Shown here: piece after piece, positions 6,001 through 9,000 of the stretch
Layout of the letters: each line of letters begins with the position of its first letter
How positions within the stretch are numbered: position 1 is the first letter of the stretch
Source: a virus
Taxonomy: Duplodnaviria; Heunggongvirae; Uroviricota; Caudoviricetes
Length of the DNA stretch: 16,525 bases
IMG/VR virus record: IMGVR_UViG_2778261085_000008
Location: 1-16,525 of that record
Direction: 5' to 3' (one strand)
Program-made: the position numbers

Positions 6001-9000
6001 GAGGAAGTAGAGAACGCTGATATCAACCAACGTCTACTGGAAGTCATTGAACAGATCGGGAGTTACTCAAAGCAGATTCGTTCGGCAATCGAAGATGGGC
6101 TAGTGGAGCCACATGAACAGACAGCAATTAATGATGAGTTGTATCTGTCGATTTCGAAGCTCCAGGAACATGCGGCGCTGGTCTACAAAATTTTCTGCGC
6201 TCCAGAAAAGAGTGACGCCCGCGAGTGTGCAGCTCCGGGCGTCGTGGCGTTTTGTGTCCGTGGAGAAACTAACGCATGAACAGTTTAACGGCAAATAACC
6301 GTTTGTCGCAACAGTTGGTGGTCAGCGTCGCTGAACACCTGTTGTTACGGCATGAATGCAGATTACCAAATCACCTGGCTGTAAGTAACCACAGAGAACT
6401 TTACCTGACTGTGGGGGGCGAGTTGTGCAGGAACTTAACCGCTGGTTTCGTGACGGAAGAGGACTTTATGTTCATGTTATTCGTTGGGAGCCAGAAACAC
6501 AGCGCGTTATCTATCTTCGCAAAGACTACCCGCATGAGTGCTTTAGTCCTTTGTGGAAATTCAGGCGTGATTTTGTTGAGTGTGAAGGACCACCAGCACA
6601 TTGATTCTGCCATTCCGGGACGTTACACTGTTCAGGCACCTTATAAAGCGGGTGTCGGGATTGGCGTCCTGGAATTGCATACGGCGACAATTGGCGCGTT
6701 AGCGTCTTTTTTGTTGCTACAACTCAGCTATACCCAAATTATGGTGGGCTGGGTGGGGGCACCGAAAGGTGCGCCGGTTTCCGTATGCGCCGGTTACGCC
6801 AACCCTGCTCAGTTCACCACCAGCGAAATTGGCGTTTCCGGTGGTGGAAGTTATCCATTGCATACGGAGGCTGCCATCATGGCTACTGTCCCAGCCCTCT
6901 CTCGTCTGAATGATGAAGACTTACATAAACTCAGTTATGTAACAACTGCACTACGTGATCTGCGCAAGGTAACTCTTTCGGATCCGCAGGCGCATGAAGT
7001 TCTGGTAGAAACCCTTCTTAACTTGCAGGCTGAACGTATTCGTCTGGCGGATAAGGCTAATTTTCATATTCACCGTCTCCTGAATATCAGCGGAGGGCAT
7101 CGTCATGCTTAATCCGTTGATCCTCAATATTTGCCGTTTTCTTCAGCGTAAAAAAACATCAATTCCTACAGTTGGGCAGTGGTACACCACACCTGCAGGG
7201 CATGTTCTACGTGTTAGCTTGGTTGACCGTGAAATTCCGGGAGGTTACACTGTTCAGGCACCTTATAAAGCGGGTGCCGGGCGTGGAAACCCGGAATTCA
7301 CCAAAGCGCACAACCGCGCTCTTGCGGTTTTTTTGTGTCATGAGCAGCATTACGCCCAAATTATGGTGGGGCGTGCAGGGCCAACTTCGGTTGGGCCGGG
7401 TTCTTTGGTGACCGGTATTTCCACCCCTGTACGTCTCACCACCAATAAGGTCGTGGAAAGCCTTGGTGGTGAGTTATTAAAAATCACCAAAGAGGCTGCC
7501 ATCATGGCTACGATCCCAACCCTCACTCAACCTGAAATTGCCATCGTTGATGGTCAGGCTGTTACTTCATCCCTAGCTGTTGCCAACTTCTTCTCCAAAC
7601 GTCATGACGATGTACTGAAAAAGATCCGCACGCTTGAATGTTCCGCATCATTCACTGCCCGCAATTTTTCGGTGAGTGATTACACCGATTGCACAGGCCG
7701 CAAACTACCTTGCTATCAAATAACCCGCGACGGCTTTGCGTTTCTTGCTATGGGTTTCACGGGGAAACGTGCTGCCCAGTTCAAAGAGGCATACATCAAT
7801 GCCTTTAACCAGATGGAAAAGCAGCTTTCAAGGCCATCCACGCTGAGCGATGCCGCACATAACGCCAGCGTGCTTTACTCCCACTTGTCGGTAATCCACA
7901 AAGTCTGGCTGCAGCAGCTTTATCCCATGTTGGCAAAAGCCGAATCCCCGCTGGCTATAAGTCTGTATGACCGCATCAACGACGCGGCGGTACTGGCCAG
8001 TCTCATAAATCTGTCACTGAACCCTTCAGAGGTAAGGGGGGGCAAATGATCCGGAATATTTTCAAACGGTTTACCAATCAGACTTTCCGTTGTCCTCGTC
8101 CGGGCCAGTGGTACACCACACCTGCAGGGCATGTTCTACGTGTTAGCCTGGTTGACCGTGAATGTCAGAAAGTGATTTGTGAACCGTTGGGCCGTAATTA
8201 CCGCGTCAGTATGCCGCTTATAGCCTTTCGCTCCGGAAAAAACATGAAGCATCTCGGAGGTGCAGCATGAGTATGGAGCTGATGGTTAAAGCGATGAAAA
8301 TTCGAGTGGGTAATCCATTGCGAAAACTGGTTCTGATCAAGCTGGCTGATAATGCCAGCGATCAGGGTGAGTGCTGGCCCAGCTACCAGCATATTGCTGA
8401 CCAGTGCGAGATTAGCAAACGTTCTGTGATGAATCATATTGCGGCCCTTTGTGAGTCCGGGCTGGTAAAAAAAGTCACCCGGAAAGGTGAAAAAGGTAAC
8501 TCAAGTAATATCTATCTCCTTCATCTGGATGGTGCAGGAGATTCACCAGGGGGTAGTGCAAATAATTCACTATCTGGTGCAGCAAATTCACCAGGTAGTG
8601 CAGGAGTTGCACCAGGGGGTAGTGCAGGAGATTCACCCAGAACCAGTCACTCTTTTGAACCAGTCAATGAACCAGTCAATGAACCAATAGCTGTTGGTGC
8701 ATCAGTTGATGAGTCCGTGCGAGTTCGTTCAAACCGACCGGAATACTCTCCGGAGTTTGAGCAGGCATGGCTGGCATATCCCAAACGTGCTGGTGGCAAT
8801 TCAAAATCTGCAGCCTTCAAAGCCTGGAAAGCCCGTTTGAATGAGGGGGTAAACCCCGAAACCATGCTGGAAGGTGTGAAACGCTACGCGGGCTGGGTAT
8901 CTGCGATGGGTAACAGCGGCACACAATTTGTGAAACAGGCTGTCACGTTCTTTGGTCCGGATCGTCATTTCGAAGAATCCTGGGAAGTTCCTGCGGTATC

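What the first reader, a model, noticed from the sequence alone, without database searches (positions are those of the whole stretch)
8531..8685. Iteron-like tandem repeats embedded in the replication-initiator gene (candidate origin)
Four 25-30-bp related units plus three copies of GAACCAGTCA lie within the low-complexity linker of the initiator, as the lambda origin lies within gene O. An alternative explanation is simple linker expansion.
Basis: partly seen in the sequence, partly recalled or inferred. Interest (0 to 1): 0.4.

Follow-up and report, generated by a model that had tools for sequence, protein, structure and literature searches.

The report
Phage replication origin inside initiator gene
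The repeats are real and are almost certainly the DNA sites where this prophage's replication initiator binds to start copying the phage genome; like the lambda origin they sit inside the initiator's own gene, so this is an expected arrangement, here in a less-studied initiator family.

Summary
Observation confirmed, with corrections. The linker-coding part of a 272-aa phage initiator gene (8267-9085, Pfam HTH_36, SfV orf39/ST64B sb42 type) holds five, not four, 19-bp dyad-symmetric units (core GTGCA-N5-T[G/T]CAC) spaced 21 or 24 bp apart at 8530-8638. Three exact GAACCAGTCA copies follow at 8640-8678.

The lambda-like interpretation is supported by comparison only; nothing here was tested by experiment.
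- All 84 distinct homologous linkers carry 2-8 such dyads, although the encoded peptides differ completely.
- 36 of the 84 have a copy in a different reading frame.
- Against relatives, codon third positions in the last two units are 94-100% identical while amino acids are only 56-69% identical. The N-terminal domain shows the reverse.
- Half-site changes are compensated across the dyad and track the recognition helix.
- The adjacent ~38-nt block uses one codon per conserved residue in 34 diverged homologs, so it is a conserved DNA element. It stands where lambda has its AT-rich region, but it is not strongly AT-rich.

"Simple linker expansion" is rejected. No helicase or loader gene lies in the window, so host DnaB-DnaC recruitment is inferred. 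This is a new member of a known kind, and interest is modest.

The parts
8267..9085 (+). Replication initiator gene, 272 aa. It has an N-terminal winged-helix domain, a repeat-bearing linker and a C-terminal helical domain.
   Evidence: ORF list and translation. Pfam HTH_36 E=1.8e-11 at aa 17-67. PHROG phrog_270 'replication initiation protein' E=5.8e-89. The gene is 98.5-99.3% identical to the replication genes of SfV orf39, mEp460, cdtI and Stx2c phages.
8315..8529 (+). Coding region of the DNA-binding winged-helix domain, with recognition helix around EISKRSVMNHI. This is the inferred iteron reader.
   Evidence: Pfam HTH_36 and DnaD_N matches. The recognition-helix sequence co-varies with the iteron half-site across homologs.
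8530..8548 (.). Iteron 1: TGGTGCAGGAGATTCACCA. Outer arms TGGTG/CACCA form a perfect dyad.
8554..8572 (.). Iteron 2: TAGTGCAAATAATTCACTA. Outer arms TAGTG/CACTA form a perfect dyad.
8575..8593 (.). Iteron 3: TGGTGCAGCAAATTCACCA
8596..8614 (.). Iteron 4: TAGTGCAGGAGTTGCACCA. Inner core GTGCA-N5-TGCAC is a perfect dyad.
8620..8638 (.). Iteron 5: TAGTGCAGGAGATTCACCC. It abuts the conserved block, as the last iteron does in all 34 diverged homologs aligned.
8615..8619 (.). G5 tract between the last two iterons. A second G5 lies at 8549-8553. In homologs this position holds either a G run or a C run, that is, the same duplex in either orientation.
   Evidence: Sequence. A run of at least 4 G (52) or at least 4 C (24) precedes the last iteron in 76 of 84 distinct homologous linkers.
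8636..8686 (.). Conserved block CCCAGAACCAGTCACTCTTTTGAACCAGTCAATGAACC, plus one extra 12-mer in this lineage. It holds GAACCAGTCA at 8640, 8657 and 8669. It is the candidate unwinding or helicase-entry element, or a site for a conserved factor.
   Evidence: In 34 homologs with at most 85% identity in the N-terminal domain, 10 of the 12 core conserved residues use a single codon (CCC AGA ACC AGT CAC TCT TTT GAA .. .. AAT GAA) and the other two use it in 89-97% of sequences. Conserved residues of the N-terminal domain use 2-6 codons. The exact pattern was found on at least 120 viral contigs, always inside this initiator family. As ssDNA the block is unusually unstructured, z=+0.9 and +1.8.
8687..9082 (+). 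C-terminal domain with a helical core. It is the inferred helicase or loader recruitment module and is swapped independently of the N-terminal cassette.
   Evidence: tblastn hits split at about aa 138-142. AlphaFold model has pLDDT 70 with four helices. No PDB sequence or fold match. The same domain in phiP27 L17 and AsXd-1 lies next to DnaC-like and DnaB-like genes.

Best explanation
The segment 8530-8686 is the replication origin of a lambdoid prophage, embedded in the linker-coding part of its own initiator gene.

Proposed mechanism, with the status of each step:
1. Dimers of the initiator's N-terminal winged-helix domain bind the five 19-bp dyad iterons, which are phased at 21 or 24 bp (about two helical turns). 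This would build an O-some-like nucleoprotein complex. Inferred.
2. That complex stresses the adjoining invariant block of about 38-50 nt (three GAACCAGTCA repeats, unstructured as single strands). The block serves as the unwinding and helicase-entry site, or as the site of a conserved accessory factor. Inferred.
3. The C-terminal domain recruits the host DnaB-DnaC complex, because the window encodes no helicase or loader. Inferred.

Shown here: the repeats exist, they are dyads, they are conserved as DNA rather than as peptide, and they co-vary with the initiator.
For: 1. Clustering beyond chance.
2. Gene identity: HTH_36 and phrog_270 initiator, in the lambdoid early-right order cI-cro-cII-...-initiator-...-RusA-Q.
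3. Universality: all 84 distinct homologous linkers, from phages and prophages of Escherichia, Salmonella, Aeromonas, Vibrio, Pseudomonas, Xenorhabdus, Shewanella, Marinomonas, Haemophilus and others, carry 2-8 tandem dyads at 21-24 bp spacing. The encoded peptides are unrelated: GSAGDSP, GGAGAA, PVPPEST, MPPKSIA, SDxMSP, VGPEST.
4. Frame independence: 36 of 84 linkers hold a copy in another reading frame. These copies average 84.5% nucleotide identity to the in-frame consensus, for example TAGTGACACAGAGTCACCA read as VVTQSHH and as SDTESPP in L060.
5. Inverted selection signature, window against ten relatives. N-terminal domain: 74-86% amino-acid identity but only 29-47% third-position identity. 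Last two iterons: 56-69% amino-acid identity but 94-100% third-position identity.
6. Compensated half-site changes: GTGCA/TGCAC, GGGCA/TGCCC, GTGAC/GTCAC, GTGAA/TTCAC, TGTGC/GCACA, TATGC/GCATA. Each set goes with a distinct recognition helix.
7. The invariant adjacent block parallels the origin annotated in the P22 record, which has iterons followed by an AT-rich stretch inside gene 18.
8. The N-terminal domain, iterons and block travel as one cassette fused to many different C-terminal domains (71 distinct flanking sequences falling into at least about 10 unrelated types) and to different helicase partners.
9. Literature: lambda O, P22 gp18 and phage L gp18 each bind iterons inside their own coding regions (PMC8022706; PMC7466680).
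Against: - There is no experimental binding or replication data for this family in the searchable literature.
- No clearly AT-rich unwinding element is adjacent. The least stable 40-mers near the iterons are only about 1-1.5 SD above the window mean, and the block is about 43% GC.
- No helicase or loader gene is present in the window, and the C-terminal domain has no recognisable fold or family. The helicase-recruitment step is therefore conjecture.
- Iterons and the initiator domain are physically linked, so co-variation could partly reflect shared descent.
- This particular prophage may be defective. Only 16.5 kb is seen.
Confidence: 0.75

Rival explanations
1. Simple linker expansion. The repeats are by-products of replication slippage in a low-complexity Gly/Ser/Ala/Pro linker, selected at most as a flexible peptide, with no role as DNA.
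For: The region encodes a low-complexity linker. Copy number varies between close relatives: cdtI has 8 units, and there is one extra or one fewer 12-mer in some contigs.
Against: Copies lie in different reading frames in 36 of 84 linkers. Peptides are unrelated between homologs while the dyad architecture is kept. Third positions are 94-100% conserved where amino acids are only 56-69% conserved. The adjacent block shows single-codon usage. G-run or C-run alternatives occupy one position.
Confidence: 0.03
2. The dyads are binding sites of the initiator but are not the origin. They would serve autoregulation, transcriptional roadblock, copy control or handcuffing, or exclusion of related phages, and initiation would occur elsewhere in the genome.
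For: The evidence for DNA-level selection and initiator co-variation does not itself show that replication starts here. No strong AT-rich DUE is adjacent.
Against: No other iteron cluster exists in the 16.5-kb window. The position and architecture match origins annotated or experimentally studied in lambda and P22. The invariant neighbouring block, and the cassette behaviour with interchangeable helicase-recruiting C-termini, fit an origin better than an operator.
Confidence: 0.12
3. The conserved block, and perhaps the repeats, are kept as a homologous-recombination junction that lets N- and C-terminal modules be exchanged between phages, or they are bound by a different protein (a host factor or another phage regulator) rather than the initiator.
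For: The module boundary falls right after the block. ST64B is 100% identical to the window over the 210 nt of N-terminal coding sequence compared, but 88.8% identical over the whole gene. The block is invariant while the iterons and recognition helices vary, so its partner must be something conserved.
Against: Selection for evolvability is unlikely to hold 30+ nucleotides invariant across hosts with different GC content and codon usage. The iteron half-sites track the initiator's own recognition helix. The two ideas are not exclusive: an essential origin element would also act as a recombination junction.
Confidence: 0.07
4. The dyads are selected as RNA or single-stranded DNA hairpins, for example for translational pausing or mRNA stability, not as duplex protein-binding sites.
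For: Compensatory changes that keep complementarity are also what hairpins would show. The iteron region folds somewhat better than shuffles as ssDNA, z=-1.75 and -2.25.
Against: The RNA fold is no better than shuffles, z=-0.33. Four of the five units in this window carry an internal C/T mismatch in a 5-bp arm. The G5 or C5 alternatives are equivalent only in duplex DNA. Half-sites track the recognition helix.
Confidence: 0.03

Closest known systems
ori-lambda inside gene O of phage lambda and the lambda-like Stx phages 933W and P27
   Same: Several roughly 19-20-bp iterons with dyad symmetry lie in the middle of the initiator gene, in the part coding the linker between the N-terminal DNA-binding domain and the C-terminal recruitment domain. 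A non-iteron element follows immediately. The N-terminal domain and its iterons are type-specific and inherited together (PMC7466680; PMC8022706).
   Different: The initiator matches Pfam HTH_36, not Phage_rep_O. Lambda O is related only at HHpred level according to PMC5509034. The iteron sequences differ. The flanking element is an invariant block of about 43% GC with GAACCAGTCA repeats, not an AT-rich tract. There is no P-like loader gene.
Phage P22 origin inside gene 18, and phage L gene 18
   Same: The origin is annotated within the initiator gene as iterons followed by another element. Different iterons go with different initiators. Gene length is similar, 271 against 272 aa.
   Different: There is no detectable sequence similarity to P22 gp18 (BLASTP E=10). 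P22 has an adjacent DnaB-type helicase gene 12, whereas this window has none.
SfV orf39 / ST64B sb42 / mEp460_043 'replication protein'. From memory and unverified: the 'initiator-solo' replication modules of Weigel & Seitz 2006, FEMS Microbiol Rev 30:321.
   Same: It is the same gene, at 88.8-99.3% nucleotide identity, with the same neighbours (phrog_1153 ORF upstream, PerC-like ORF downstream) and no helicase or loader gene.
   Different: The records seen carry no origin annotation for these phages. I could not read the review, so I cannot say whether the iterons were already noted there.
Iteron plasmids (RK2 TrfA, pPS10 RepA, F RepE)
   Same: Tandem initiator-binding repeats are spaced about two helical turns apart next to an unwinding element with short repeated motifs, and the initiators are winged-helix proteins (general knowledge; PMC4980987 listed).
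   Different: Plasmid iterons are direct repeats in non-coding oriV and are bound by monomers of Rep_3-type proteins. Here the units are dyads inside a coding region. No Rep_3 family match was returned by the Pfam scan; DnaA boxes were checked only by eye, not with a tool.

Membership tests
Lambdoid 'origin within the initiator gene' (ori-lambda type architecture) | Three or more tandem initiator-binding repeats (iterons) located in the linker-coding middle of the initiator gene | tested here: met
   Five 19-bp units lie at 8530-8638, aa 89-124 of a 272-aa initiator. The same holds in all 84 distinct homologous linkers.
Lambdoid 'origin within the initiator gene' (ori-lambda type architecture) | Each iteron has internal dyad symmetry, consistent with dimer binding | tested here: met
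   Four of the five 19-mers have 6 of 9 symmetric pairs; the fifth (8620-8638) scored below that threshold. Symmetry is maintained through compensated half-site changes across homologs.
Lambdoid 'origin within the initiator gene' (ori-lambda type architecture) | AT-rich DNA-unwinding region directly next to the iterons | tested here: inconclusive
   There is no strongly AT-rich tract. 40-nt duplex dG is -49.5 at 8650 and -46 at 8490, against a window mean of -53.6 with SD 4.7. Instead there is an invariant block of about 43% GC that is unstructured as ssDNA.
Lambdoid 'origin within the initiator gene' (ori-lambda type architecture) | Initiator binds the iterons, and the fragment supports initiator-dependent replication | not testable with these tools
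   This needs EMSA or footprinting and a plasmid replication assay. The only indirect support is the co-variation of recognition helix and half-site.
Lambda O protein family (Pfam Phage_rep_O) | Sequence membership of the initiator | tested here: not met
   The Pfam scan returns HTH_36, DnaD_N and generic HTH families only, with no Phage_rep_O. BLASTP against P22 gp18 gives E=10.
HTH_36-type phage replication initiators (PF13730; PHROG phrog_270) | N-terminal HTH_36 winged-helix domain above the Pfam gathering score, and a PHROG initiator family match | tested here: met
   HTH_36 scores 44.1 bits against a cut-off of 25, E=1.8e-11. phrog_270 E=5.8e-89.
'Initiator-solo' replication module (initiator without phage helicase or loader) | No helicase, primase-helicase, DnaC-like or P-like gene in the early-right operon | tested here: met
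   Pfam and PHROG scans of the 20 largest ORFs of the window find none. The same gene order occurs in mEp460, cdtI and ST64B. Only 16.5 kb was examined.
Iteron plasmid replicons (Rep_3 / RepA-type) | Rep_3-family initiator, direct (non-dyad) iterons in a non-coding oriV | tested here: not met
   No Rep_3 family was returned by the Pfam scan. The units are dyads inside a coding region. DnaA boxes were not scanned for with a tool.
Low-complexity peptide-repeat linker (no DNA function) | Repeats in one reading frame, with conservation at the peptide level at least as high as at the DNA level | tested here: not met
   36 of 84 linkers have out-of-frame copies. Third-position identity is 94-100% against amino-acid identity of 56-69%.

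The most novel reading that the evidence does not exclude
The invariant ~38-nt block (CCCAGAACCAGTCACTCTTTTGAACCAGTCAATGAACC) is a universal origin element that does not depend on initiator specificity. It would be the actual unwinding and helicase-loading site, or the site of a conserved factor, shared by phages of many gammaproteobacterial genera. Together with the winged-helix domain and its matching iterons it would form a portable 'origin cassette' that can be fused to any helicase-recruiting C-terminal domain. Its sequence-specific GAACCAGTCA repeats, which are not AT-rich, would imply origin opening by sequence-specific single-strand capture rather than by simple AT-rich melting.
Probability: 0.35. 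Interest if true: 0.55.

Novelty: new member of a known kind. Interest (0 to 1): 0.33.

Why it matters
This initiator gene is widespread. At least 80% of it is present in 897 of 5,426 complete E. coli genomes, and it occurs in serotype-converting (SfV), cdt-carrying and Stx2-converting phages. Knowing where these phages start replication is useful for three reasons.
- It bears on prophage induction and toxin gene dosage.
- It could yield compatible phage-derived replicons.
- It could improve origin annotation in phage genomes.

The comparative signatures found here can also be reused to find origins hidden in coding sequence: repeats kept across reading frames, invariant third codon positions beside variable amino acids, and single-codon usage in the block. 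The invariant block gives a concrete target, testable by mutagenesis, for the question of how initiators without their own loader open DNA and load the host helicase.

Tried and rejected
- AT-rich DUE. The GC profile and nearest-neighbour stability profile around the iterons show only mild minima.
- Promoter scan of 8000-9300. No sigma-70-like sites were found. One terminator-like hairpin lies on the minus strand at 8490-8475, within chance expectation.
- RNA structure. The MFE z-score is -0.33. Rfam has no family match in the region.
- Identity of the C-terminal domain. PDB sequence search found nothing meaningful. NCBIfam and Pfam gave no hit. An AlphaFold model (pLDDT 70) searched with Foldseek against the PDB gave no match with E below 1. 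Its partner remains unknown.
- Homology to P22 gp18. None by BLASTP.
- Eru1-3 replication types of Stx phages (PMC8044961). Eru2A is a Phage_rep_O protein with an adjacent DnaB, so it is not this gene. PMC8951638 only notes HTH_36 proteins in Eru5, 6, 8, 11 and 13.
- Literature search for the iteron and block sequences, 'initiator-solo', SfV/ST64B origin and HTH_36. No paper describing this origin was found. Weigel & Seitz 2006 is not held.
- The 10-nt perfect inverted repeat 8326-8335 / 8638-8647. I judge it to be chance, because the KLVL codons involved are not conserved in the family.
- By-eye checks of the block for a DnaA box, an IHF site or a -1 frameshift site found nothing convincing. 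These are inference from the sequence, not tool results.
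Full report
**Context**

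The window is the early-right region of a lambdoid prophage of Escherichia coli. The gene order is:
- S24 repressor, 4719-5393 (minus strand)
- cro-like gene, 5379-5684
- cII-like gene, 5728-6279
- Ash and Rha regulators, 6276-8049
- a small phrog_1153 ORF, 8046-8270
- the ORF at issue, 8267-9085
- a PerC-like ORF and a LexA-DBD ORF
- RusA, a KilA-like regulator, an HNH protein and a Q-like antiterminator

The ORF 8267-9085 encodes 272 aa. It has an HTH_36 winged-helix domain (aa 17-67, E=1.8e-11) and matches PHROG phrog_270 'replication initiation protein' (E=5.8e-89). It is 98.5-99.3% identical in DNA to the replication genes of SfV (orf39), mEp460, cdtI, Ayreon and many Stx2c/Stx2a phages, and 88.8% identical to ST64B sb42. 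At least 80% of the gene is present in 897 of 5,426 complete E. coli genomes. No helicase, primase-helicase, DnaC-like or P-like gene is in the window.

**The observation**

The repeats are real, but their description needs correcting. There are five units, not four. Their spacing is 24, 21, 21 and 24 bp, not 25-30 bp. Each unit contains a 19-bp dyad of the form (T)(G/A)GTGCA-N5-T(G/T)CAC(C/T)(A/C). The units lie at 8530-8548, 8554-8572, 8575-8593, 8596-8614 and 8620-8638.

The core pattern GTGCANNNNNTKCAC has five exact matches in 16.5 kb, all in this cluster. Allowing one mismatch on both strands gives 12 matches, against 2.97 +/- 2.2 expected, and none of 200 shuffles reaches 12. G5 tracts fill the two 24-bp spacings (8549-8553 and 8615-8619).

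The three GAACCAGTCA copies are exact, at 8640, 8657 and 8669, and unique in the window. The whole array covers aa 89-140, the linker between the winged-helix domain and the C-terminal domain.

**DNA or peptide?**

I collected 13 phage homologs, 80 diverse genomic loci from Pseudomonas, Xenorhabdus, Photorhabdus, Shewanella, Marinomonas, Aeromonas, Haemophilus and other genera, and 80 near-identical viral contigs. Four results follow.

1. Every one of 84 distinct linkers carries 2-8 tandem units (mode 3-5) at 21-24-bp spacing. The encoded peptides, however, are unrelated: GSAGDSP here, GGAGAA in Min27, PVPPEST in S135, MPPKSIA in BUCT709, SDxMSP in Vibrio D67 and VGPEST in several Pseudomonas prophages.

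2. In 36 of the 84 linkers one copy lies in a different reading frame from the others. These copies still average 84.5% nucleotide identity to the in-frame consensus, compared with 91.7% for in-frame copies. For example, TAGTGACACAGAGTCACCA is read as VVTQSHH and as SDTESPP in L060, and GTAGTGCAGGAGATTCACC is read as VVQEIHQ beside SAGDSL in L015.

3. The selection signature is inverted between the two parts of the gene. I compared the window with ten relatives. In the N-terminal domain, amino-acid identity is 74-86% and third-codon-position identity only 29-47%. In the last two iterons, amino-acid identity is 56-69% but third-position identity is 94-100%. Polymorphism among 67 near-identical alleles shows the same trend: there is no third-position excess in the iteron region.

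4. The position before the last iteron holds either a G run (52 linkers) or a C run (24 linkers) in 76 of 84 cases. These are equivalent only as duplex DNA.

Peptide-level linker expansion cannot produce these patterns.

**Who binds?**

The units are dyads, and the half-sites change in a compensated way between lineages:
- GTGCA/TGCAC
- GGGCA/TGCCC
- GTGAC/GTCAC
- GTGAA/TTCAC
- TGTGC-N9-GCACA
- TATGC-N9-GCATA

Each class goes with a distinct recognition-helix sequence in the same protein:
- EISKRSVMNHI with GTGCA
- the same helix with N changed to R, with GTGAC/GTCAC
- EVSRSTVK with GGGCA
- ECSKSAV with T(G/A)TGCC
- EIDRSTVRK with TGTAGGC

This is what binding by a dimeric winged-helix protein predicts.

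Because the sites lie inside the gene, linkage contributes to the association, so this is strong circumstantial evidence, not proof. An RNA-hairpin reading is unlikely. The RNA folds no better than shuffles (z=-0.33), and four of the five units here carry an internal mismatch in the arm.

**The neighbouring block**

Directly after the last iteron comes CCC AGA ACC AGT CAC TCT TTT GAA CCA GTC AAT GAA CC. I examined 34 homologs that share at most 85% identity in the N-terminal domain.
- Each conserved residue of the block is encoded by a single codon in essentially all sequences. This includes the six-fold degenerate Arg (AGA, rare in E. coli) and two Ser residues (AGT at one position, TCT at the other).
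- Invariant residues of the N-terminal domain, by contrast, use 2-6 codons, with the top codon at 26-80%.

The exact 28-nt core was found on at least 120 viral contigs. In every case it lies in this family, after the iterons, and it precedes many unrelated C-terminal domains: 71 distinct flanking sequences, which I judge to fall into at least about 10 unrelated types.

The block is therefore a conserved cis-element whose partner must be conserved too. It occupies the place of the AT-rich region of ori-lambda and of the P22 origin. It is only mildly AT-rich, at about 43% GC, and mildly unstable. As single strands it is unusually free of secondary structure (z=+0.9 and +1.8).

I read it as the unwinding and helicase-entry element. 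This step is inferred. A site for a host factor, or a recombination junction, remain alternatives.

The window's lineage has one extra 12-mer, giving three GAACCAGTCA copies where most of the family has two plus a partial copy. One contig has a further copy (L173).

**Modularity and helicase recruitment**

tblastn hits split at about aa 138-142. The N-terminal cassette (winged helix, iterons and block) and the C-terminal domain recombine independently. ST64B is 100% identical to the window over the 210 nt of N-terminal coding sequence compared, but 88.8% identical over the whole gene.

The cassette is found next to several different helicase systems:
- primase-helicases in Min27, F451, SI5 and S135
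- DnaB-type helicases in BUCT709
- a P-like protein in Psychrobacter phage Y8A
- nothing in the window, SfV, ST64B, mEp460 and cdtI

The window's own C-terminal domain recurs in phiP27 L17 and in Aeromonas phage AsXd-1, where DnaC-like and DnaB-like genes follow it. It therefore probably recruits a DnaB-DnaC-type complex, and in this window that would be the host's. This is inference. The domain has no Pfam, NCBIfam, PDB sequence or PDB fold match.

**Comparison with what is known**

Origins embedded in initiator genes are textbook for lambda. [quoted passage not shown]

This locus works like those origins but is not a member of the lambda O (Phage_rep_O) family. Pfam places the protein in HTH_36, and BLASTP finds no similarity to P22 gp18. 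PMC5509034 reports only HHpred-level relatedness of lambda O to HTH_36.

None of the phage records seen annotates an origin here, and no searchable paper contains the iteron or block sequences. The 2006 review of phage replication modules could not be read, so an earlier mention cannot be excluded.

I therefore rate the finding as a new member of a known kind. The invariant block and the frame-independent iterons are the modestly new points.

**Verdict**

The origin interpretation is supported by strong comparative evidence, and simple linker expansion is rejected. Confidence that these are functional initiator-binding iterons forming the phage origin is about 0.75. The roles of the block and of the C-terminal domain are inferred. 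Interest is modest at about 0.33, because a specialist would expect an origin at this position.

Noticed in passing
window 6636-6824 and 7258-7446 (+): Two tandem pairs of Rfam isrK (RF01394) plus C4 antisense RNA (RF01695) matches lie inside the Ash-family and Ash/Rha ORFs. They look like duplicated P1/P7-type c4-controlled antirepressor modules upstream of the initiator.
   Followed up: no
window 15116-15191 and 15194-15270 (+): Two tRNA genes, tRNA-Met(CAT) and tRNA-Arg(TCT). The Arg tRNA reads AGA, the rare codon that is fixed by DNA-level constraint in the origin block at 8639-8641. The link is only a thought.
   Followed up: partly
window 8475-8490 (-), T-run 8465-8474: A terminator-like hairpin plus T-run on the minus strand, inside the initiator gene just left of the iterons. 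The scan expects about 1.3 such sites by chance in this stretch.
   Followed up: no
window 9239-9253 (-) and 6425-6439 (+): Two isolated one-mismatch matches to the iteron core (GTGTATCTCCTTCAC and GTGCAGGAACTTAAC) lie outside the cluster. They are probably chance.
   Followed up: no
window 8326-8335 vs 8638-8647: A perfect 10-nt inverted repeat, ACTGGTTCTG / CAGAACCAGT, links the KLVL codons of the winged-helix domain to the start of the conserved block. Codon usage at those residues varies in the family, so it is probably coincidence.
   Followed up: partly
L295 (phiP27) 2330-2470: A more distant HTH_36 initiator (L17), with the same C-terminal domain as the window's protein, carries a different linker repeat. 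It has a 15-bp period, units like GAACCGTCAGAATCT and an internal palindrome TCAGA-A-TCTGA. DnaC-like and DnaB-like genes follow it.
   Followed up: partly
L001 (cdtI) 1763-1930; L173; LC727881 and LC727889: Copy number varies among near-identical genes. cdtI has 8 iterons through a three-unit duplication of 66 bp. One viral contig has four EPV(K/N) 12-mers. Some Stx2c phages differ by about +12 or -12 to -14 bp.
   Followed up: partly
L002 (ST64B) vs window 8267-9085: The 210 nt of N-terminal coding sequence compared are 100% identical to the window, although the whole gene is 88.8% identical. This points to a recombination junction near the conserved block.
   Followed up: partly
E. coli K-12-type genomes (hits H117-H124): In many genomes, including the laboratory strain TG1, only the last 76 nt of the gene match, next to yfdN. 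These appear to be remnants of a related initiator gene in the CPS-53/KpLE1-type prophage.
   Followed up: no
window 400-422: A short 12-bp tandem repeat, AGTTGTTCATTA x2, lies at the start of the ORF 420-1199(-).
   Followed up: no
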